From Escherichia coli (GTDB lineage: Bacteria; Pseudomonadota; Gammaproteobacteria; Enterobacterales; Enterobacteriaceae), in the NCBI RefSeq assembly GCF_003790525.1, contig NZ_CP033635.1: a stretch of 64,000 nt of DNA, one strand, 5' to 3'. A program made the translations under genes and the position numbers. Positions 1,578-43,745 of this stretch are shown here, one piece after another (the first letter of the stretch is position 1; each line of letters opens with the position of its first letter). Below the pieces are notes generated by a model. It searched no databases, was not told the DNA's origin, and worked only from the letters and a program-made list of their open reading frames with translations.

Positions 1578-3884
1578 CTACATTCCATAACGTTCAGAAA
1601 TAGCAGCATGCTTCTCTTCATTCGCCCCGGCTTCTTTGGCAAGACGCCACCAGCACAACGGATGTTCCCAGTCAGCGGTCAATTCGTGCAAGGTCTTATC
1701 GATATCACCTTTAGAAACTGAACGCGGCGCGCTGATAACAAAGTAGAACGCGGGCAGCGGCTGTGCATCTTCTCCCTGCTGGCTGTCCGTTAACGTATAG
1801 TCCTCGTTACTGTTGCTCCAGTAGTACCAGTTTCGTTCACGGAGCGCCTCACGGAAGGCATTAAACTGTTCTTCACCAGGCATGACACCTTCGCAGAACC
1901 AGGACTCGCCGTACTCAGTCGGGATAATGGTTTGCAGGCAGGCATAAAGTGGCGTGAAATTCTTCCGTTCTTCCTCATCCTCTGGTTGGGTGTTCAATAT
2001 TTCCGCATCGAATACCACAACTTCATCAACATGTTGCGGATAATCGGTCCGGTAAGTTGGCTCAATGATCCTTGCTGTTACCGGCCCAATACGTTGAGCA
2101 TAGTAATAGCGGTATTCATAATTTTCCCGGAAGCGAATGTTTAGCAGTCCCCATTTTTCGTCGATAAAACCTTCACCTTCCGTAAGTTCGATTTCCAGTT
2201 CAGCTGCAATAGCACGAACCAAATCCCATTGTTGCAGGATGCTGGCGGTCGCCATGATATCCCACTGGATATTACGAATATCTTCTTCACGGCTAATCAT
2301 CAGTTGCTGCAATTGTTGTAAATAATCCAGCTGTCGATCCCAGGCTTCCTGTTTTTGTGCTGCCCAGGAGCACATGCGATAAACGCCGATCCACTCACGC
2401 CCTTTTTCGTTTTGCAGCAACTGGTGCCCAATCGACTCGAGTTCACTCCAGTCTTCCTGTTGGTTGATCACTCGCGCACGGAACCACAAGGCCATATGTA
2501 GCAGCCCCGCCTGTTCATACTGCTTCGCCAGGTGCTCAATGGTTTGCAGATCGTCACGGTGGAGCAATAAATCCAACAGATCGAAGCAAAGACCATTATC
2601 TTCCTGGATGTGGCTTTCGACGTAGCGTTGCAGAAGTTCAATCGACTCATCAATCGCATTACAGGCGTTTAACGCATTGACCAGTTTGCCCAGCAATTCC
2701 GCATCATCTGGCGCGTTCAGGTAAGCGCGGCGGAATGTTTCGACGTCTTTTTCTGGATCTGGCTGCGTTTCTTCATCGCTATTTTCAGGTACTTCTACAA
2801 CCGGACGAGCAAGCAACTCTGCTTCTTTGGCGGCGATTTTTTCACTCAGTTCGAGAAACTCACGATCAACCCCCAGTAACACGCGTAATTTTGGCATGTG
2901 TCGCTGGGCCAGTTTCATCGCTATTTTGGCAACCCAGACGGATTCACGCTCCAGCGCCAGGGTAATTTGCAGTTTCGCCAGATCAACCACTTTGCGGTGC
3001 GCTCCGGCCTGCGAGCGGTGCTCCAGCATTTTTTGGATGATGCGCGCCAGTTGCCAGTTGTTTCTTTGTGGATGACGGGGAAGTAACACAGTAATGATTT
3101 TCAGCCATGACCCCCATGAATGGGGAGTCAGATCTGACCAACGCGGTAATTCCTCCCAGACTTCTTCGTCCTGCCCGCATAACGCCATGATGTACAGTTT
3201 TTTGAGGTGATTACTAATGCGGTCGCGGCCCCAGTAATCATTGGCTTCTGTCAGCTCATCAATCAGTATGCGTGCTTCATCATAACGCTGAAGTTCAATC
3301 AGAATATCGGCACGAGTATAAAGTAATGCATCAATATCATCTTCCCCGGCTGCTTTAACTGCGTCGATTTGTCGATCCAGATAAGCCAGTGCCTCCTCTA
3401 TTCTTTTGGAATCTATCAGTGCACTGGCATATTCAGTGGACAAACACTGAAAACAGCTCCAGGTCGGATCAATCCGCGCGATGGTTTCTTCACATACCGC
3501 CATACGTTCATTCGCCCAGCCAGGTGCATCAATATTTTCGTAGCAGGCGGATAAATCCTGGGTAACGCAGATAGATTGTGGGCAATCTTTTGTCTCTTCC
3601 CGGTGCGCTTTTTCAAACAGCGCTACCACGTCTGGCAGCACCTTTTCACCTTCTTCATAGTTAGTCAGGCGATGACGCATTTCCCAGTGACCAATAAATA
3701 TTTCCAGCCACGGATTTTTTGCCACCTGGGTAAGTGCTTTTACTTCAGGTAACAGCGAATCGCACTTTTCCATTTGCAGGTGCATAACGCCTTCCGAATA
3801 ATCATCGATAAGTTGCGGAATATACTCCTGCCCGGCATCGCGTAACTCCTTAGTATATTTGTGATACCACTCCCATATATCCAT
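1578..3884 (-). CDS. 768-aa acidic, Trp-rich, predicted alpha-helical repeat (TPR-like) protein of unknown function; distal gene of the accessory Hsp90-like operon
   Basis: Long uninterrupted ORF; its ATG (3882-3884) lies 1 nt after the TAA (3886-3888) of the upstream gene, with SD-like AAGGAA just upstream; no catalytic motif recognised. Confidence 0.75.
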   Translation of the reverse strand: MDIWEWYHKYTKELRDAGQEYIPQLIDDYSEGVMHLQMEKCDSLLPEVKALTQVAKNPWLEIFIGHWEMRHRLTNYEEGEKVLPDVVALFEKAHREETKDCPQSICVTQDLSACYENIDAPGWANERMAVCEETIARIDPTWSCFQCLSTEYASALIDSKRIEEALAYLDRQIDAVKAAGEDDIDALLYTRADILIELQRYDEARILIDELTEANDYWGRDRISNHLKKLYIMALCGQDEEVWEELPRWSDLTPHSWGSWLKIITVLLPRHPQRNNWQLARIIQKMLEHRSQAGAHRKVVDLAKLQITLALERESVWVAKIAMKLAQRHMPKLRVLLGVDREFLELSEKIAAKEAELLARPVVEVPENSDEETQPDPEKDVETFRRAYLNAPDDAELLGKLVNALNACNAIDESIELLQRYVESHIQEDNGLCFDLLDLLLHRDDLQTIEHLAKQYEQAGLLHMALWFRARVINQQEDWSELESIGHQLLQNEKGREWIGVYRMCSWAAQKQEAWDRQLDYLQQLQQLMISREEDIRNIQWDIMATASILQQWDLVRAIAAELEIELTEGEGFIDEKWGLLNIRFRENYEYRYYYAQRIGPVTARIIEPTYRTDYPQHVDEVVVFDAEILNTQPEDEEERKNFTPLYACLQTIIPTEYGESWFCEGVMPGEEQFNAFREALRERNWYYWSNSNEDYTLTDSQQGEDAQPLPAFYFVISAPRSVSKGDIDKTLHELTADWEHPLCWWRLAKEAGANEEKHAAISERYGM

Positions 3885-3885
3885 T

Positions 3886-5721
3886 TTATTTTCCTTGATT
3901 AATTAAGACAGGAATAACCTGAGTAAAATCTTCCAGTGCCTGGTGTAAATCCCACTGCTGTTCTTTATTACCGCTGGAGCACAAAATCACTTTCAGCGAT
4001 TTTAATAAGCGTAATGCCGCTGCGGGCTGTTGCTGGTGTTGTAATGCCGTCACCAGTTGCATGATGCAAGGGTTATTAAGGTTGATGTATAAACTTGAGG
4101 TTTTCGTTTTTTGGATTTGTGAAGTAAATTGCCGCGCCAGCATTAACGCTGCGGTGCTGATGCGTTTATCTGCGTCATCCTGTTCGAGAATTTGTTTTAA
4201 TTCTGCTTCGCGGTCTGGCGTAACCACTAACGGTAAAACGGCGGGTTCGAAGCGGGAGATAATTAATTGCTCGCCATCGCAGAGATGCTCTTCCAGATAA
4301 GCTACCTGCTCTTCGGGTAATTCCGCCAGGCTGAACAACTGCTCATTACCTGTTTGCGTACCGACTTCGACAATCCGGCAGTGATATAACAGCGCCCAGC
4401 GACGTAAAAATGGCACGACGGCATAGCGATCGCCACGGGCAACGGGCCGTTGCAGAATGTGGAACAACATCTCTTCAAAACCGCCGTCGCGGCTTAACAG
4501 AATATGAATGCTGTTATTAACGCGTAAATCCTTCGCCAGCAACGCCCCTTTTGACGTTGGCACCTGCAAGCGATCTTTGAGCAAATCAAACAGACGGTCA
4601 TCACATAATGCCGCACCGAGCAACGCTTCGTTGTGGCGCATTAATACACGCCGCCAGATTTCTGGCTGATTTTGTGCGAGATCGGACAAACCAGAAATCA
4701 GCGCCTCTTTTAACGCCTCCTGCACCGCAACCCAGGTTTCGTCCCGCTGGAGATCTTCCCGGCTCGCCGTAGGCGTTAGTTTCGATGACTCAATCACGCC
4801 GCCAATAAATCCGGCCCAGGGAGGTAACAACTCACGCGCTTCATCATCCAGTAACATACCGCGCAAAAACAGCGACAGGTTGCGGTTATCGCTGGTGCCG
4901 TAGGTTGCGCCATCCTGAATCCATAAAATCCCAACCGCGTCGCTCATCCCCACGGGCACCACCGGAATGGTGCAAATCGGTTCGAAGGAGGATTCAAACT
5001 GGGCGGCAAAGGCGAGATTTTTACGCTGTACCAGCGCGCGGTGCATGGTTACGCCTTCGGGGGCAACTTCACGCCACGGTGGTTGAAGTTTATTTACCGG
5101 CTCGCTGGCATCGCCGACATAGACCGGTTCGTGCAGCAATATACAGTAGCGGGAAAGAACGCGGTTCAGCAAATTGTTACTCGCCAGATGGCTGTACTCT
5201 TCTTTGAGCGTCAGAATCACCTGCGTACCCGTTTCCGAGGACTGATGCGGCGTAACGGTATATTTTTGCCCGTCGGTAGAGTGGTATTTCCAGCTCTGAT
5301 CCGGCGTTTGCCAGGATGTGGTCAACACCGTGACCTCTTTCGCCAACACAAAGGCCGACAAAAAACCGAGGCCGAACATACCAATTAAACCGGTGTTGTC
5401 ATCCTGCTGGCGCAACATTCGGGTATAACCCACGCCTACTGTCGCCAGGAAGCCGTGAATTTCACTTTCTGTCAGTCCAGCGCCAGTATCGCTAATAGTG
5501 ATAGTGGACTTCGCCACGTCTGCCACCACACGAATCGCGTTATCCTTTGGTGCATCGGGCTGCTCAATCCTGCGGCGAACGATCGCATCATGGCCGTTCT
5601 GCACCAGCTCGCGCACGGCAACCACGGGAGTGGAGTAAAGATGCTTACTGAGCACCTCAATTAAGCCGTTTAAATTAACTTCTGTAGAATATGAACTACC
5701 AGGTAACTGTAATGTACTCAT
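3886..5721 (-). CDS. Divergent Hsp90/HtpG-family (GHKL) ATPase paralog, 611 aa
   Basis: Bergerat-fold motifs in order: E38xxxN42xxD45 (RELVQNGHDA), D78TGAG (ISDTGAGL), G114MFGLGFLSAF; middle-domain signature LPPWAGFIGGVIESSKLTPTASRE resembles Hsp90 FxRGVVDSEDLPLNISRE; shorter than canonical HtpG. Confidence 0.8.
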   Translation of the reverse strand: MSTLQLPGSSYSTEVNLNGLIEVLSKHLYSTPVVAVRELVQNGHDAIVRRRIEQPDAPKDNAIRVVADVAKSTITISDTGAGLTESEIHGFLATVGVGYTRMLRQQDDNTGLIGMFGLGFLSAFVLAKEVTVLTTSWQTPDQSWKYHSTDGQKYTVTPHQSSETGTQVILTLKEEYSHLASNNLLNRVLSRYCILLHEPVYVGDASEPVNKLQPPWREVAPEGVTMHRALVQRKNLAFAAQFESSFEPICTIPVVPVGMSDAVGILWIQDGATYGTSDNRNLSLFLRGMLLDDEARELLPPWAGFIGGVIESSKLTPTASREDLQRDETWVAVQEALKEALISGLSDLAQNQPEIWRRVLMRHNEALLGAALCDDRLFDLLKDRLQVPTSKGALLAKDLRVNNSIHILLSRDGGFEEMLFHILQRPVARGDRYAVVPFLRRWALLYHCRIVEVGTQTGNEQLFSLAELPEEQVAYLEEHLCDGEQLIISRFEPAVLPLVVTPDREAELKQILEQDDADKRISTAALMLARQFTSQIQKTKTSSLYINLNNPCIMQLVTALQHQQQPAAALRLLKSLKVILCSSGNKEQQWDLHQALEDFTQVIPVLINQGK

Positions 5722-6030: not shown

Positions 6031-6867
6031 TTAATTATGAATCAAACGCTGCGGATGGGTATAAACCGTTGCCCGACCCGGTTTACAAAAACCTACCAGT
6101 GTCAGATTACAGCGCTCAGCCACTTCTACAGCAAGCGTGGTCGCGGCAGACACCGCAAACAAAATCTCTACGCCGCACATCGCTGACTTTTGCACCATTT
6201 CATAACTGGCACGGCTGGAAACCAGCACCGCACCTTGCTGCCAGCTTTCCCCTTCTTGTGACCGGCGGCCTAACAGTTTGTCCAGCGCCACATGGCGACC
6301 CACGTCTTCATGCCCGCCGACCAGTTCGCCAGATGGCAACATCCAGGCGGCGGCGTGAGTACAACCGGTCAGTTGCCCCACTGGCTGAAAATCATTGAGA
6401 TGACGTAATGCATCATCCAGTTTGTTGAGATCAAACGTCTGGGTGAACGGTAGCGGCTGCACCGGTTTTCCGATGTCATTAAGTTGCTCCACGCCGCACA
6501 CGCCACATCCCGTACGTCCCGCCAGTGCCCGGCGACGCTCCTTCAACCCCATAAAGCGGCGGCTGGAAAGCTCAATTTGCACTTCCAGACCATTACAGGA
6601 AGGAACGACATCCATACCGAAGATATCGCGCGGACTTTCGATAATCCCCTCGGAAAGCGAAAAACCGAGCGCAAAGTACTCAAGGTCTTTGGGTGACGCC
6701 ATCATCACTACATGCGAAATGCCGTTGTAGACCAGCGCAACGGGAACCTCTTCCGCCACCTCATCTAACCGTGGGTGTTGTAAATCATCACGCCGCCATA
6801 ACTCAATTTGACGAACACCTGTGACACTTGTCACATTTTCGATTTCTTTTTGCTGTGTTTTTTTCAC
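6031..6867 (-). CDS. fdhD: FdhD, sulfurtransferase required for formate dehydrogenase activity
   Basis: 278-aa ORF with characteristic FdhD sequence; divergent from fdoG. Confidence 0.9.
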
Positions 6868-7060
6868 TTTCTCTTAACCAGATAAGAACACACACACCAA
6901 CATTATGGTATTCTGTTACAAACCCTTCCTGGATGGAGGGAAATTGAGCCAATTCTGGACCTTTGCGGCCCCTTCCGCAAAGAAAAATAACTCCCACTCC
7001 CTGCACACGCAGCAAGCGAATGTAAATGGGACGTGACAATGTCGAAACAAGGAGCAATCC

Positions 7061-10000
7061 ATGCAGGTCAGCAGAAGGCAGTTCTTTAAGATCTGCGCTG
7101 GCGGTATGGCAGGCACCACGGCAGCGGCACTGGGTTTTGCACCCAGCGTAGCACTCGCGGAAACCCGGCAGTATAAACTGCTGCGCACCCGCGAAACCCG
7201 TAATACCTGCACCTATTGTTCCGTAGGCTGTGGGCTGTTGATGTACAGCCTCGGTGACGGAGCAAAAAACGCCAAAGCATCTATCTTCCATATCGAAGGT
7301 GACCCGGATCACCCGGTCAACCGCGGAGCACTTTGTCCGAAAGGCGCTGGCCTGGTGGATTTCATCCACTCCGAAAGCCGCCTGAAGTTTCCGGAATACC
7401 GTGCGCCAGGTTCTGATAAATGGCAACAAATCAGTTGGGAAGAGGCGTTTGATCGCATCGCCAAACTGATGAAAGAAGACCGCGATGCGAACTACATTGC
7501 GCAAAACGCCGAAGGCGTGACTGTTAACCGCTGGCTCTCCACCGGGATGCTGTGTGCTTCCGCGTCGAGCAACGAAACCGGCTATTTAACACAAAAATTC
7601 TCCCGCGCGCTGGGTATGCTCGCGGTCGACAACCAGGCGCGTGTCTGACACGGACCAACGGTAGCAAGTCTTGCTCCAACATTTGGTCGCGGTGCGATGA
7701 CCAACCACTGGGTCGACATCAAGAATGCCAACCTCGTCGTGGTGATGGGCGGTAACGCCGCTGAAGCTCACCCGGTCGGGTTCCGCTGGGCGATGGAAGC
7801 CAAAATTCACAACGGCGCGAAGCTGATTGTGATCGATCCTCGCTTTACACGTACGGCGGCGGTGGCTGACTACTATGCCCCTATTCGTTCCGGGACTGAC
7901 ATTGCTTTCCTGTCAGGCGTATTGCTGTACCTGCTGAACAATGAAAAATTCAACCGCGAATACACCGAAGCCTATACCAACGCCAGCCTGATCGTGCGTG
8001 AGGATTACGGCTTTGAAGATGGCCTGTTCACCGGCTACGACGCGGAAAAACGCAAGTACGATAAATCCAGCTGGACCTACGAGCTGGACGAAAACGGCTT
8101 CGCCAAACGCGATACCACGCTGCAACATCCGCGCTGCGTGTGGAACTTGCTGAAACAGCACGTTTCCCGTTATACGCCAGATGTGGTTGAAAACATCTGT
8201 GGTACGCCGAAAGACGCGTTCCTGAAAGTCTGCGAATACATCGCAGAGACCAGTGCTCACGATAAAACTGCCTCGTTCCTTTACGCGCTCGGCTGGACGC
8301 AACACTCCATTGGTGCGCAAAACATTCGTACGATGGCGATGATCCAGCTGCTGCTCGGCAACATGGGGATGGCAGGCGGCGGCGTTAACGCCCTGCGCGG
8401 TCACTCCAATATTCAGGGGCTGACCGACCTGGGGCTGCTGTCGCAGAGTCTGCCAGGTTACATGACGTTGCCAAGCGAGAAGCAGACCGATCTGCAAACT
8501 TACCTTACCGCCAACACGCCGAAACCACTGCTGGAAGGCCAGGTTAACTACTGGGGCAATTACCCGAAATTCTTCGTCTCCATGATGAAGGCCTTCTTTG
8601 GTGATAAAGCGACGGCGGAAAATAACTGGGGCTTTGACTGGTTGCCGAAGTGGGATAAAGGCTACGACGTCCTGCAATACTTCGAGATGATGAAAGAGGG
8701 CAAGGTCAATGGCTATATCTGCCAGGGCTTTAACCCTGTTGCCTCATTCCCGAACAAAAACAAAGTGATCGGCTGTCTGTCGAAACTGAAGTTCCTCGTG
8801 ACCATCGACCCGCTGAACACTGAAACCTCTAACTTCTGGCAGAACCACGGTGAACTGAACGAAGTTGACTCGTCGAAGATCCAGACCGAAGTGTTCCGTC
8901 TGCCATCGACCTGCTTCGCGGAAGAGAACGGTTCAATCGTCAACTCTGGCCGCTGGTTGCAGTGGCACTGGAAAGGTGCGGACGCCCCGGGGATTGCGCT
9001 GACTGACGGCGAGATCCTCTCCGGTATCTTCCTGCGCTTGCGCAAGATGTATGCCGAACAGGGTGGCGCGAACCCGGACCAGGTGCTGAACATGACCTGG
9101 AACTACGCCATTCCGCATGAGCCATCTTCAGAAGAAGTGGCGATGGAGAGTAACGGTAAGGCGCTGGCCGATATTACCGATCCGGCAACCGGTGCGGTTA
9201 TCGTCAAGAAAGGCCAACAACTTAGCTCGTTCGCCCAACTGCGCGATGACGGTACAACCTCCTGTGGCTGCTGGATTTTCGCCGGTAGCTGGACGCCGGA
9301 AGGCAACCAGATGGCGCGTCGTGATAACGCCGATCCGTCTGGCCTCGGTAACACGCTGGGCTGGGCATGGGCATGGCCGCTTAACCGCCGCATTCTGTAT
9401 AACCGCGCCTCCGCAGATCCGCAGGGTAACCCATGGGATCCGAAGCGTCAGTTGCTGAAATGGGACGGCACTAAGTGGACCGGCTGGGATATTCCGGATT
9501 ACAGCGCAGCGCCTCCGGGCAGTGGCGTCGGGCCGTTTATCATGCAGCAGGAAGGCATGGGGCGTCTGTTTGCCCTCGATAAGATGGCGGAAGGTCCGTT
9601 CCCGGAACACTACGAGCCGTTTGAAACGCCGCTGGGAACTAACCCGCTGCATCCAAACGTTATCTCGAACCCGGCTGCGCGAATCTTTAAAGACGACGCC
9701 GAAGCATTGGGTAAAGCCGATAAGTTCCCGTATGTCGGAACCACCTATCGTCTGACCGAGCACTTCCACTACTGGACCAAACACGCGCTGTTGAACGCGA
9801 TTTTGCAACCAGAGCAGTTTGTGGAAATCGGGGAGTCGCTGGCGAATAAACTTGGCATTGCCCAGGGCGATACTGTGAAAGTCTCCTCCAACCGTGGCTA
9901 TATCAAAGCCAAAGCGGTAGTGACCAAACGTATTCGCACGCTGAAAGCAAACGGCAAAGATATCGATACCATCGGTATTCCGATTCACTGGGGCTATGAA

Positions 10001-10111
10001 GGTGTTGCGAAAAAAGGCTTTATTGCCAATACGTTGACGCCATTCGTCGGTGATGCGAACACGCAGACGCCGGAGTTTAAGTCCTTCCTTGTGAATGTGG
10101 AAAAGGTGTAA
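7061..10111 (+). CDS. fdoG: Formate dehydrogenase-O catalytic subunit; selenoprotein with in-frame TGA (Sec) at 7646-7648
   Basis: ORFs 7061-7648 and 7697-10111 are in the same frame, separated only by TGA; frame stays open through ...RVU-HGPTVASLAPTFGRGAM...; Tat signal RRQFFKICAGG at N-terminus. Confidence 0.92.
7646..7695 (+). promoter_or_regulatory. Selenocysteine insertion (SECIS) region immediately 3' of the fdoG UGA
   Basis: Position directly downstream of in-frame TGA; bacterial SECIS hairpins lie within about 40 nt 3' of UGA; exact structure not folded. Confidence 0.6.
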
Positions 10112-34485: not shown

Positions 34486-34651
34486 TGTTTAATCCTTTTG
34501 GTTTAAACCAGATGAAGCATCTTACGCTTACGCCAAAAAAGAAAGCAATTAACGGTGTATGACTTTGCAGATAATTGTGACAAAGCTCTCTATTGACGTA
34601 ATCACAGACTTATAAGGGAGATACTCGCATTGGTGTGCGCTCACGACAGGT

Positions 34652-34685
34652 AAAAAAAAACCTGCCAGCGATGGCAGGTTTTTTA
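34652..34685. terminator. Rho-independent terminator downstream of typA (A-run/hairpin/T-run, potentially bidirectional)
   Basis: AAAAAAAAA-CCTGCCAGCGATGGCAGG-TTTTTT read directly. Confidence 0.8.
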
Positions 34686-34701
34686 TAACTAAAAAACGAA
34701 A

Positions 34702-36525
34702 TTAATCGTCTTTCGGTGCGCGGTTGGCGCGACGACGATCGTTTTCCGTCAGGTGACGTTTACGAATACGGATAGAGGTCGGAGTCACTTCTACCAGTTC
34801 GTCATCATCGATGAACTCCAGAGCTTGTTCCAGAGTCATGCGGATAGGCGGAACCAGAACAACGGCTTCGTCAGTACCGGAAGCACGCATGTTGGTCAGT
34901 TTCTTACCGGTCAGGCAGTTTACAGTCAGGTCGTTAGAGCGGCTATGAATACCGATAATCTGACCTTCGTAAACTTCTGCACCGTGACCGAGGAACAGCT
35001 TACCGCGATCTTGCAGACCGAACAGCGCGAACGCGACCGCTTTACCCTGACCGTTAGAGATCAGTACGCCGTTCTGACGCTGACCCACTTCACCCGGACG
35101 TACGTCGTCGTAGTGGCTGAAGGTGGAGTACAGCAGACCAGTACCGGAAGTCATGGTCATGAACTCAGAACGGAAGCCAATCAGACCACGGCTTGGGATC
35201 ACGTAGTCGAGACGTACGCGGCCTTTACCGTCTGGATTCATGTTTTTCAGGTCGCCTTTACGTTCGCCCAGCGCCTGCATTACAGAACCCTGATGCTGTT
35301 CTTCAACGTCCAGAGTCACGTTTTCATACGGCTCTTGTTTACGACCGTCGATTTCACGGAAGATAACTTTCGGACGGGATACCGCCAGTTCGAAACCTTC
35401 ACGACGCATGTTTTCGATCAGAACAGACAGGTGCAGTTCGCCACGACCAGAAACGCGGAACGCATCGGCGTCTTCGGTTTCTTCTACGCGCAGCGCAACG
35501 TTGTGTACCAGTTCTTTGTTCAGACGATCCAGGATCTGACGAGACGTTACGAACTTACCTTCTTTACCGCAGAACGGCGAGGTGTTAACGCAGAAGAACA
35601 TAGAAACGGTCGGCTCATCAACGGAGAGTGCCGGCAGCGCTTCAACGTTTTGCGTGTCGCAAACGGTGTCAGAAATGTTCAGTTCGCCAAGGCCCGTGAT
35701 CGCAACGATATCGCCAGCTTCCGCCAGATCGGTTTCGATACGTTCCAGACCGAGGTGGCCCAGCACTTTACCGACTTTCGCGTTGCGGGTTTTGCCTTCG
35801 CTATCGATGATAGTGACCTGCTGGTTCGGCTTCACTTTACCGCGCTTGATGCGGCCAATGCCGATAACGCCAACATAGCTGTTGTAATCGAGCTGAGAAA
35901 TCTGCATCTGGAACGGACCGTCAAGGTCAACGTCCGGCGCAGGAACGTGGTCAACAATCGCCTGGTACAGCGGGGTCATGTCTTCCGCCATATCTTCGTG
36001 GTCCAGACCCGCGATACCGTTCAGCGCAGAAGCGTAAACGATCGGGAAGTCCAGCTGCTCGTCGGTCGCGTCGAGGTTAACGAACAGATCGAATACCTGA
36101 TCCACAACCCAATCAGGACGCGCGCCAGGGCGGTCAACTTTGTTGATAACAACAATCGGCTTCAGGCCGTAAGCAAACGCTTTTTTGGTTACGAAGCGCG
36201 TTTGCGGCATCGGGCCGTCAAATGCGTCAACCACCAGCAGCACTGAATCTACCATGGACATTACACGTTCAACTTCACCACCGAAGTCGGCGTGCCCCGG
36301 GGTATCAACGATGTTGATACGGTAATCATTCCATTTGATAGCGGTGTTTTTCGCGAGGATGGTAATCCCACGCTCTTTCTCCAAATCGTTGGAGTCCATC
36401 ACGCGCTCTTGGGTTTCGGCACGAGAGTCGAACGTACCGGATTGTTGGAGCAGCTTGTCTACCAGGGTGGTTTTACCATGGTCTACGTGCGCGATGATGG
36501 CGATATTACGCAATTTTTCGATCAC
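34702..36525 (-). CDS. typA: Translational GTPase TypA/BipA
   Basis: 607 aa; G motifs [20 protein letters not shown]-like architecture. Confidence 0.95.
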
Positions 36526-36676
36526 AACTTTGCCTCAGGCATTAGAAATAGCGCGTTATTGTACACGGATTAATCGCACTACAAAACAGGATCACAAACA
36601 TCCTCCGCAAACAAGTATTGCAGAGTCCCTTTGTGATCGCTTTCACGGAGCATAAAAAGGGTTATCCAAAGGTCAT

Positions 36677-36760
36677 TGCACCAATATGGTGCTTAATGTT
36701 TCCATTGAAGCACTATATTGGTGCAACATTCACATCATGGTGCAGCCCTTTTGCACGATG
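36677..36760 (+). promoter_or_regulatory. NtrC enhancer sites upstream of glnA (TGCACC-N5-GGTGCA type)
   Basis: TGCACCAATATGGTGCT (36677-36693), GCACTATATTGGTGCAA (36710-36726) and a further TGGTGCA...TTGCAC repeat. Confidence 0.8.
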
Positions 36761-43434: not shown

Positions 43435-43502
43435 AATGGTTCGTCTTTTAGCCGTTTTATTCAGTATAGATTTGCGGCGGAATCTAACAGAAAGCAAGCA
43501 AA

Positions 43503-43745
43503 GAAAAAAGGCGACAGATTACTCTGTCGCCTTTTTTCCTGACTCATAACCCTTAACGGGTCTTACAATCCTTGCAGGCCGCCAACACACCCTGTTTTTC
43601 CATTAGCCGGAACAATCCGTGTTGATTCCATTTCCGTTTAATTACGTCTCCGGACGTTTGTCTTCCTGACAATCCTCTGTCTTCGCCTCCTGGCGCTCCT
43701 GACCCTCATCCTGAGTCATTGTTCCTGTTAGCGTCCTCGCTCTAT
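43503..43745 (-). ncRNA. csrC: CsrC small RNA (CsrA-sequestering)
   Basis: Reverse complement begins ATAGAGCGAGGACGCTAACAGGAACAATGACTCAGGATGAGGGTCAGGAGCGCCAGGAGG with multiple GGA motifs and ends in terminator GGCGACAGAGTAATCTGTCGCCTTTTTTCTT; matches remembered CsrC sequence and its position between engB and yihI. Confidence 0.9.

What the first reader, a model, noticed from the sequence alone, without database searches (positions are those of the whole stretch)
7640..7700. Selenocysteine recoding site in fdoG
The two ORF-track pieces of fdoG are in the same frame, separated only by TGA at 7646-7648, followed by the expected SECIS-bearing sequence. A stop-codon-based gene caller will split or truncate this gene. 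Known biology, listed because it explains a feature that looks anomalous in the ORF track.
Basis: partly seen in the sequence, partly recalled or inferred. Interest (0 to 1): 0.25.

Follow-up and report, generated by a model that had tools for sequence, protein, structure and literature searches.

The report
Selenocysteine UGA recoding site in fdoG
The in-frame TGA at 7646-7648 is the well-known selenocysteine codon (Sec196) of the E. coli formate dehydrogenase-O catalytic subunit gene fdoG, followed by its SECIS hairpin; it is ordinary textbook biology that only looks odd because stop-codon-based gene callers split the gene in two.

Summary
Confirmed, and already known. ORFs 7061-7648 and 7697-10111 share one frame, and the TGA at 7646-7648 is the only stop between them. 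Read through, they give a 1016-aa protein that is 99.8% identical to E. coli K-12 FdoG (b3894). The TGA is codon 196, as in K-12 fdoG and fdnG. The gene sits in the canonical locus: fdhD on the opposite strand, then fdoG-fdoH-fdoI-fdhE. Rfam SECIS_3 matches 7643-7701 at 84.3 bits (gathering score 63). The apical hairpin (7660-7677) starts 11 nt after the UGA, with bulged U17 and loop G23/U24 in the same register as the fdhF SECIS.

Independent support:
- The longest identical run between the paralogues fdoG and fdnG (75% identical overall) is 71 nt, at 7643-7713.
- Across 74 distinct Sec-type homologues, the apical stem is 96.7% paired and 4 of its 7 pairs show compensatory changes.
- The synonymous sites at G15 and U24 are nearly invariant.
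- Five Cys (TGY) homologues lack the hairpin and score only 38-48 bits.
- selAB and selC are present in more than 99.9% of complete E. coli genomes.
- The split 195-aa and 804-aa products are common in public databases, so the gene-caller warning is correct.

Interest is low.

The parts
7061..10111 (+). fdoG, formate dehydrogenase-O alpha (catalytic) subunit: one 1016-codon CDS with Sec at codon 196
   Evidence: Continuous translation with a single internal TGA. 99.8% aa identity to K-12 FdoG b3894, which has the same length and coordinates pattern. TIGR01553 scores 1575 bits against a cutoff of 814. Aligns end to end with PDB 1KQF FdnG. RefSeq annotates one 3051-nt CDS here in strain SMS-3-5.
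7061..7159 (+). Twin-arginine (Tat) signal peptide region (MQVSRRQFFK...ALA)
   Evidence: The S-R-R-x-F-F-K motif is visible in the translation. The extent (33 aa) is inferred from what is established for FdnG/FdoG and was not tested here.
7646..7648 (+). UGA codon 196, decoded as selenocysteine
   Evidence: Same codon position and context (NQARV-U-HGPTVASL) as K-12 fdoG and fdnG. Aligned with X in 1KQF. TGA in 111 of 116 homologous loci retrieved; the other 5 have Cys TGT/TGC.
7643..7701 (+). SECIS element as delimited by the Rfam model (SECIS_3)
   Evidence: 84.3 bits against gathering score 63, full-length model match 1-59. Lies inside the 71-nt longest identical run between fdoG and fdnG, 7643-7713.
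7660..7677 (+). Apical SECIS hairpin GGUAGCAAGUCUUGCUCC: stem G15-G16/C31-C32, bulged U17 (7662), 5-bp stem, loop G23 U24 C25 (7668-7670). This is the SelB-binding part
   Evidence: Present in the MFE and centroid folds. Begins 11 nt after the UGA, as the fdhF element does. 96.7% paired across 74 distinct homologues, with 4 of 7 pairs showing compensatory change. Determinants as listed in PMC8659212.
7651..7691 (+). Lower helix of the SECIS (7651-7658 pairing with 7683-7688 and 7690-7691 in the MFE fold)
   Evidence: In E. coli its register is slipped by one relative to the Rfam consensus. Covariation support is weak: 83.5% paired and no double-sided changes.
10124..11026 (+). fdoH, beta (Fe-S) subunit
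   Evidence: TIGR01582 scores 479 bits. RefSeq annotation.
11023..11658 (+). fdoI, cytochrome b556 gamma subunit
   Evidence: NF007924 scores 450 bits against a cutoff of 341; the FdnI model falls below its cutoff. Annotation.
11655..12584 (+). fdhE, formate dehydrogenase accessory protein
   Evidence: NF002925 scores 604 bits. Annotation.
6031..6867 (-). fdhD, accessory sulfurtransferase, divergently transcribed
   Evidence: TIGR00129 scores 339 bits. Annotation.

Best explanation
Window 7061-10111 is the single gene fdoG. It encodes the catalytic molybdopterin subunit of the respiratory formate dehydrogenase-O of Escherichia coli. Codon 196 (UGA, 7646-7648) is not a terminator. It is recoded as selenocysteine, the residue that ligates the molybdenum at the active site. 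The mechanism is the established bacterial pathway, inferred here rather than measured. The mRNA immediately 3' of the UGA folds into a SECIS hairpin. Its apical part (7660-7677, bulged U17, loop G23/U24, 11 nt from the UGA) is bound by the specialised elongation factor SelB. SelB carries Sec-tRNA(Sec) (selC product, anticodon UCA) to the ribosomal A site and outcompetes release factor 2. Translation then continues to the TAA at 10109-10111 and gives a 1016-aa Tat-exported selenoprotein. The same nucleotides also encode the conserved active-site peptide HGPTVASLAPTFGRGAM, so protein and RNA constraints overlap there.
For: Shown by tools here. The single in-frame TGA and continuous frame. 99.8% identity to K-12 FdoG with TGA at the same codon 196. 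The TGA splits a single Pfam domain: PF00384 profile positions 1-67 lie before it and 97-300 after it. End-to-end alignment with the selenoprotein FdnG structure 1KQF places the query's Sec position (entered as X) on X. Rfam SECIS_3 scores 84.3 bits against gathering score 63. The MFE fold contains the apical hairpin with a bulged U and a GUC loop, in the same register as fdhF. A 71-nt run at 7643-7713 is the longest identity between fdoG and fdnG; the paralogues are 75% identical overall and 56% at third positions, against 100% over codons 195-217. In 74 distinct Sec-type homologues the apical stem is 96.7% paired, 4 of 7 pairs have compensatory changes, and 59 double-change cells compare with 21 +/- 4 in shuffles, 0 of 500 reaching the observed value. 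Some amino-acid changes keep pairing, for example A-S-L-A to S-S-L-G. Among 111 Sec-type sequences the synonymous third positions at G15 (110/111 G) and U24 (111/111 T) are almost invariant, whereas neighbouring four-fold sites carry 1.0-1.8 bits of entropy. Five Cys-codon homologues form 2-5 of the 7 apical pairs, their forced hairpin energy averages +5.4 against -5.6 kcal/mol, and they score 38-48 bits, below the gathering score. The machinery is present: selAB in 5425 and selC in 5424 of 5426 complete E. coli genomes, and the recoding site in 5425 of 5426. Literature: the SECIS determinants (17-nt apical element 11 nt from the UGA, U17, G23, U24) come from PMC8659212. [quoted passage not shown]
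Against: Nothing contradicts it. Four caveats apply. The hairpin is not thermodynamically exceptional (z = -0.21 for 55 nt, -1.63 for 47 nt), so stability alone would not identify it. About half of the Rfam score comes from coding conservation, since Cys homologues still score about 40-48 bits. The lower stem of the Rfam consensus has two non-canonical pairs in this sequence and no covariation support. Selenium incorporation and SelB binding were not measured for this sequence.
Confidence: 0.97

Rival explanations
1. The TGA is a genuine nonsense mutation or sequencing error, so fdoG is a pseudogene in this strain.
For: Naive ORF calling yields two pieces. Truncated products are deposited in databases.
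Against: The same TGA is present in K-12 fdoG, fdnG and fdhF. The 86-nt site is found in 5425 of 5426 complete E. coli genomes at >=95% identity. TGA occurs in 111 of 116 homologues from many phyla. A covarying SECIS follows it. The downstream 820 codons remain open and 99.8% conserved.
Confidence: 0.005
2. Two separate genes: a 195-aa Fe-S/Tat-signal protein terminated at the TGA, and an 804-aa protein started at ATG 7697.
For: An ATG exists at 7697, and gene callers emit both products.
Against: The TGA interrupts a single Pfam molybdopterin domain. The 16 codons 7649-7696 are in frame, open and invariant at protein level across phyla. The crystal-structure chain 1KQF_A is continuous across the site. 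RefSeq and K-12 annotate one CDS.
Confidence: 0.005
3. The UGA is read through by a mechanism not specific to Sec, such as near-cognate tRNA-Trp or Cys-tRNA(Sec), with the hairpin acting only as a pause or stimulatory element.
For: Low-level SECIS-dependent UGA suppression without selenium has been described for fdhF (title of Liu et al. 1999, listed among the references of PMC8659212). No tool result here distinguishes which amino acid is inserted.
Against: The conserved features are exactly the SelB-binding determinants: U17, G23, U24 and the 11-nt spacing. selAB and selC are universally present. FdnG, with the identical 71-nt sequence, was solved as a selenoprotein.
Confidence: 0.02

Closest known systems
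E. coli K-12 fdoG (b3894), formate dehydrogenase-O alpha subunit, Sec196
   Same: Same gene. 1014/1016 aa and 2984/3051 nt identical, TGA at codon 196, and an identical 66-nt sequence around the TGA. Same operon context, with fdhD divergent and fdoG-fdoH-fdoI-fdhE.
   Different: Only strain-level polymorphism (67 nt differences, one of them near the site at gene position 666). The window matches strain SMS-3-5 and others at 100% over 6.6 kb. RefSeq/PGAP labels this gene 'fdnG' in those strains, which is a naming artefact of the TIGR01553 equivalog.
E. coli fdnG SECIS (formate dehydrogenase-N; structure 1KQF)
   Same: The 71 nt from 3 nt before the UGA are identical to those of fdoG. Sec is at codon 196 and the active-site peptide is the same.
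   Different: A paralogue: 77% aa and 75% nt identity overall, at a different locus (fdnGHI) under nitrate/anaerobic regulation (established knowledge; regulation not tested here).
E. coli fdhF SECIS (formate dehydrogenase-H), the experimentally dissected prototype; Rfam SECIS_2-like
   Same: UGA followed by CACGG..., with the apical hairpin starting at nt 15, bulged U17 and G23 U24 in the loop, in the same register.
   Different: Different stem sequence (UGCA/UGCA with a 4-nt GGUC loop, against AGCAA/UUGCU with a 3-nt GUC loop). Sec is at codon 140 of a 715-aa cytoplasmic enzyme that is only 34% identical. The window scores only 28 bits on SECIS_2.

Membership tests
Bacterial SECIS element (Rfam RF01989 SECIS_3; FdnG/FdoG type) | Covariance-model score at or above the curated gathering score | tested here: met
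   84.3 bits against 63, full-length match 1-59. Cys-codon homologues used as a negative control score 38-48 bits.
Bacterial SECIS element (Rfam RF01989 SECIS_3; FdnG/FdoG type) | In-frame UGA immediately 5' of the hairpin, inside a coding sequence | tested here: met
   TGA at 7646-7648 is codon 196 of a 1016-codon frame.
Bacterial SECIS element (Rfam RF01989 SECIS_3; FdnG/FdoG type) | Apical stem-loop of about 17 nt beginning 11 nt 3' of the UGA, with bulged U17 and G23/U24 in the loop (criteria as in PMC8659212) | tested here: met
   GGUAGCAAGUCUUGCUCC occupies nt 15-32 (7660-7677). U17 is unpaired and the loop is G23 U24 C25 in the MFE and centroid folds. The register is the same as in fdhF.
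Bacterial SECIS element (Rfam RF01989 SECIS_3; FdnG/FdoG type) | Structure maintained by selection (compensatory changes; constraint on synonymous sites) | tested here: met
   The apical helix is 96.7% paired and 4 of 7 pairs have double-sided changes; no shuffle in 500 reached the observed covariation score. Third positions at G15 and U24 are invariant or nearly so. The lower helix has no compensatory changes, so it is inconclusive.
Bacterial SECIS element (Rfam RF01989 SECIS_3; FdnG/FdoG type) | Binds SelB and directs Sec insertion dependent on selenium, selB and selC | not testable with these tools
   Indirect evidence only. selAB and selC are present in more than 99.9% of complete E. coli genomes. 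FdnG carries the identical sequence and has been solved as a selenoprotein.
FdoG (formate dehydrogenase-O alpha subunit; DMSO-reductase-family molybdoenzyme) | Orthology to E. coli b3894 rather than to the paralogue FdnG | tested here: met
   99.8% identity to FdoG against 77% to FdnG. Followed by fdoH, then fdoI (the FDH-O-specific b556 model passes its cutoff and the FdnI model fails), then fdhE; preceded by divergent fdhD.
FdoG (formate dehydrogenase-O alpha subunit; DMSO-reductase-family molybdoenzyme) | Domain architecture: Tat signal, Fe4S4 domain, molybdopterin oxidoreductase domain, molybdopterin-dinucleotide-binding domain | tested here: met
   SRRQFFK motif. PF04879, PF00384 (split by the TGA) and PF01568. 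TIGR01553 scores 1575 bits against a cutoff of 814.
FdoG (formate dehydrogenase-O alpha subunit; DMSO-reductase-family molybdoenzyme) | Sec at the Mo-ligand position followed by His (U-H motif) | tested here: met
   The ARV-U-HGPTVASL context is identical to that of FdnG 1KQF, with Sec (X) in the same column.
FdoG (formate dehydrogenase-O alpha subunit; DMSO-reductase-family molybdoenzyme) | Formate-oxidising activity coupled to quinone reduction | not testable with these tools
   Rests on established knowledge of E. coli FDH-O.

The most novel reading that the evidence does not exclude
Conservation here goes well beyond the 17-nt minimal SECIS. Seventy-one nucleotides (7643-7713) are identical between the paralogues fdoG and fdnG. 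The 62-nt core is also identical across many Enterobacterales genera, including Providencia, Photorhabdus, Yersinia, Citrobacter, Enterobacter, Klebsiella and Superficieibacter. This could mean the extended element has a further role that has not been dissected, such as tuning recoding efficiency, ribosome pausing or RF2 competition through the lower helix and 3' flank. It could also reflect recurrent gene conversion between fdoG and fdnG. Neither possibility is excluded by my data. Both would be modest refinements of known biology.
Probability: 0.12. Interest if true: 0.3.

Novelty: already known. Interest (0 to 1): 0.05.

Why it matters
This matters for annotation quality, not for discovery. 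It explains an apparent split gene in the ORF track. It also shows that the split really propagates: the exact 195-aa and 804-aa halves are deposited on hundreds to thousands of contigs, and some are misnamed, for example 'sulfate ABC transporter substrate-binding protein'. Any pipeline working on this window should merge 7061-10111 into one CDS with transl_except Sec at 7646-7648. The Sec-versus-Cys homologue comparison also illustrates how an RNA signal embedded in a coding sequence can be told apart from protein-level conservation.

Tried and rejected
1. Thermodynamic stability as a criterion. The 55-nt fold has z = -0.21 against shuffles and the 47-nt fold z = -1.63. Stability does not discriminate, so I relied on the covariance model, register and covariation.
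2. Taking the Rfam consensus lower stem at face value. In this sequence two of its pairs (model positions 8-48 and 12-44) are non-canonical, and the MFE uses a register slipped by one. Across homologues the lower helix shows no double-sided changes. I therefore claim only the apical hairpin as structurally supported.
3. Treating the SECIS_3 score as pure RNA evidence. I rejected this because Cys-type homologues still score 38-48 bits from coding conservation. Only the excess of about 36-46 bits is specific to the SECIS.
4. The sub-threshold Rfam hit 'FdoG1_thermometer' at 6892-7090 (32 bits against gathering score 50). Only the part covering the Shine-Dalgarno sequence and first codons aligns well, so it is not claimed.
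5. The primary papers on the minimal SECIS (PMC147357) are not held in the library. A full-text search for fdoG together with UGA and 'formate dehydrogenase O' found nothing. I used the review PMC8659212 and PMC8124441 instead.
6. The pseudogene, two-gene and sequencing-error readings are rejected; see the rival explanations.

Full report
**Observation.** Window 7640-7649 reads cgtgtcTGAc, so the TGA sits at 7646-7648 as reported. The mechanical ORF list has 7061..7648 (195 aa, ending at that TGA) and 7697..10111 (804 aa), in the same frame. Translating 7061-10111 in one frame gives 1016 sense positions, a single internal stop at codon 196 and a terminal TAA. The frame is open from 7649 onward; 7697 is only the first ATG after the stop.

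**Identity of the gene.** The 6.6 kb around the site is 100% identical to E. coli SMS-3-5 and several other strains. It is present at >=95% identity in 5424 of 5426 complete E. coli genomes.
- The read-through product is 1014/1016 identical to K-12 FdoG (b3894), 77% identical to FdnG and 34% identical to FdhF. In all three K-12 genes the only internal stop is a TGA followed by CACGG.
- NCBIfam TIGR01553 (FDH-N/O alpha) scores 1575 bits against a cutoff of 814.
- The neighbours are fdhD (6031-6867, minus strand), fdoH (10124-11026), fdoI (11023-11658) and fdhE (11655-12584). For fdoI the FDH-O b556 model passes its cutoff at 450 bits, while the FdnI model, at 240 bits, does not. This is the K-12 fdo locus layout.
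- RefSeq annotates a single 3051-nt CDS here, although PGAP names it 'fdnG'.
- Pfam shows that the TGA cuts one domain in two. PF00384 profile positions 1-67 lie before it and 97-300 after it. PF04879 (Fe4S4) lies upstream and PF01568 at the C-terminus.
- The protein aligns end to end with the FdnG crystal-structure sequence 1KQF_A. I entered the query's Sec position as X, and it falls on the X of that chain.

**The RNA element.** Rfam SECIS_3 (RF01989) matches 7643-7701 over the full model at 84.3 bits (gathering score 63). E is 8.9e-20 locally and 1.4e-18 for the whole window, and it is the only SECIS hit in 64 kb.
- The MFE and centroid folds of the 47-55 nt starting at the UGA contain the apical hairpin GGUAGCAAGUCUUGCUCC (7660-7677). 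It has a GG/CC base, a bulged U and a 5-bp stem closing a GUC loop.
- Counting the U of UGA as 1, the hairpin starts at nt 15, which is 11 nt after the codon. The bulged U is U17 and the loop holds G23 and U24.
- The fdhF prototype has the same register, with GGUUGCAGGUCUGCACC at nt 15-31.
- These are the determinants the literature lists for SelB recognition (PMC8659212, which cites Liu et al. 1998 and Fourmy et al. 2002).
- Stability alone is unremarkable: z = -0.21 for 55 nt and -1.63 for 47 nt.

**Is the structure selected, or is it just a conserved peptide?** The SECIS overlaps the codons for the conserved active-site peptide HGPTVASLAPTFGRGAM, so I ran three independent tests.

*Test 1: paralogue comparison.* The window's fdoG and K-12 fdnG are 75.3% identical in nucleotides and 56% identical at third codon positions. 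Their longest identical run is 71 nt at 7643-7713, starting 3 nt before the UGA; the next longest is 36 nt. Third-position identity is 100% over codons 195-217.

*Test 2: distant homologues.* I made one DNA-pattern scan of 100,044 species genomes with CARGCNCGNGTNTGHCAYGGNCC. The pattern constrains only the QARV-[U/C]-HGP codons and leaves the hairpin free. Of these, 116 were usable: 111 with TGA and 5 with TGT/TGC.
- On 74 distinct TGA sequences, including the window, the Rfam structure is 89.3% paired overall. It falls to 28-50% when the 3' partners are slid by 1-3 columns.
- The apical helix is 96.7% paired, and 4 of its 7 pairs change on both sides (for example A-U to C-G in 30 sequences, and G-C to U-G, A-U or C-G).
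- There are 59 double-change cells against 21 +/- 4 in shuffles, and 0 of 500 shuffles reach the observed value.
- Some lineages change the encoded amino acids (A-S-L-A to S-S-L-G) in a way that keeps pairing.
- The lower helix is 83.5% paired and has no double-sided changes. In E. coli it uses a register slipped by one, so it is only weakly supported.
- Across the 111 Sec-type sequences, the third position of Thr+4 (G15) is G in 110 of 111. The third position of codon +7 (U24) is T in 111 of 111. Neighbouring four-fold degenerate sites carry 1.0-1.8 bits of entropy.

*Test 3: negative control.* The five Cys-codon homologues encode nearly the same peptide.
- They form only 2-5 of the 7 apical pairs.
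- Four of the five lack the GU loop.
- Forced into the hairpin, they average +5.4 kcal/mol, against -5.6 for the Sec genes.
- They score 38-48 bits on SECIS_3, below the gathering score.

Roughly half of the model score therefore comes from coding conservation, and the rest is specific to genes that carry the UGA.

**Machinery.** The window does not contain selA, selB, selC or selD. Using K-12 sequences as queries, selAB is found in 5425 and selC (tRNA-Sec, UCA) in 5424 of 5426 complete E. coli genomes. The 86-nt recoding site occurs in 5425 genomes, typically at two places per genome, fdoG and fdnG.

**Mechanism.** The mechanism is inferred from established knowledge and is consistent with all the results above. 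SelB-GTP carrying Sec-tRNA(Sec) binds the apical hairpin as the ribosome approaches. It delivers Sec to the UGA in competition with RF2. The helix is then unwound and read as codons 197-212. The product is the Tat-exported (SRRQFFK) selenomolybdoenzyme subunit, which pairs with FdoH and FdoI. PMC8124441 likewise describes fdoGHI as encoding a membrane-bound FDH-O with a catalytic Sec.

**Rivals.** Three other readings were considered.
- A pseudogene or sequencing error is excluded by the universal conservation of the TGA and by the covarying hairpin.
- Two separate genes are excluded by the split Pfam domain, the open and conserved linker codons, and the continuous chain in the structure.
- Read-through not specific to Sec cannot be excluded as a minor pathway. 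It does not explain why the SelB determinants, specifically, are conserved.

**The gene-caller claim.** This is verified empirically. The exact 195-aa N-terminal piece is in the public protein collection on at least 1000 contigs, in a cluster of 3382 members. The exact 804-aa piece is on 516 contigs, in a cluster of 6687 members, with GenBank accessions. Some N-terminal pieces carry wrong names.

**Verdict.** This is a well-known case of selenocysteine recoding, so the novelty class is 'already known' and interest is about 0.05. The only mildly open point is why conservation extends over 71 nt, well beyond the minimal SECIS. This holds between the paralogues and, for the 62-nt core, across Enterobacterales genera.

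Noticed in passing
window 1578-5721 (minus strand): Two ORFs lie between fdhD and yiiG (DUF3829, 328-1383), which are adjacent genes in K-12. One is a 768-aa TPR-containing protein (1578-3884). The other is a 611-aa GHKL/HSP90-like ATPase (3886-5721; Pfam HATPase_c_3 and HSP90). This is a strain-variable two-gene island of unknown function. PADLOC gave only weak N-terminal TmtA-like hits and no known defence system.
   Followed up: partly
window 7061-10111; RefSeq NC_010498.1 ECSMS35_RS21575: PGAP names the alpha subunit of the fdo locus 'fdnG / formate dehydrogenase-N subunit alpha' in thousands of E. coli genomes, while its neighbours are named fdoH and fdoI. This is a naming artefact, because one equivalog model (TIGR01553) covers both paralogues.
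   Followed up: yes
window 7061-7645 and 7697-10108 (products): The split halves of this selenoprotein gene are widespread in public protein databases. N-terminal halves from Cronobacter malonaticus and Hafnia alvei are annotated 'sulfate ABC transporter substrate-binding protein', an evident annotation error.
   Followed up: partly
window 6892-7090 (+), fdoG 5' UTR and first codons: Sub-threshold Rfam match to RF02778 'FdoG-1 5' UTR thermometer' (32 bits against gathering score 50, E = 2.6e-5). Only the Shine-Dalgarno and start-codon-proximal part aligns well. This is not evidence for a thermometer here.
   Followed up: no
L030 4123-4184 (-) and L061 756-817 (+) (Desulfovibrionaceae MAGs): These two TGA-containing homologues (peptide HGPTVPALAESFGRG) form only 2-3 of the 7 apical pairs in the E. 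coli register and have a CUC loop. Their SECIS presumably has a different shape or register.
   Followed up: no
e.g. NZ_CP159530.1 197035-197117 (298.8-kb plasmid record): Seven of the 10,830 matches to the 86-nt recoding site in complete E. coli genomes lie on plasmids, annotated fdnG. So plasmid-borne copies of a Sec-type formate dehydrogenase gene exist.
   Followed up: no
window 12787-12829, 34649-34717, 36607-36714, 43492-43745, 44774-44892, 53978-59071 (all minus strand): Other Rfam hits at gathering threshold: ES036 (CssrF), STnc370, ES222, CsrC, Spot 42, and a complete rrn operon. The operon comprises 5S, 23S, StyR-44, two spacer tRNAs and 16S. These are consistent with the E. coli chromosome region of about 4.03-4.09 Mb in K-12 coordinates.
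   Followed up: no
window 7643-7704 and loci L022, L025, L027, L033, L038, L042, L043, L052, L053, L055, L056, L067, L069, L071-L073, L113, L114, L117: The 62-nt core around the UGA is identical, synonymous sites included, in fdoG/fdnG-type genes of many Enterobacterales genera: Providencia, Photorhabdus, Citrobacter, Enterobacter, Escherichia albertii, Superficieibacter, Yersinia and Klebsiella. That is more conservation than the 17-nt minimal SECIS would require.
   Followed up: partly
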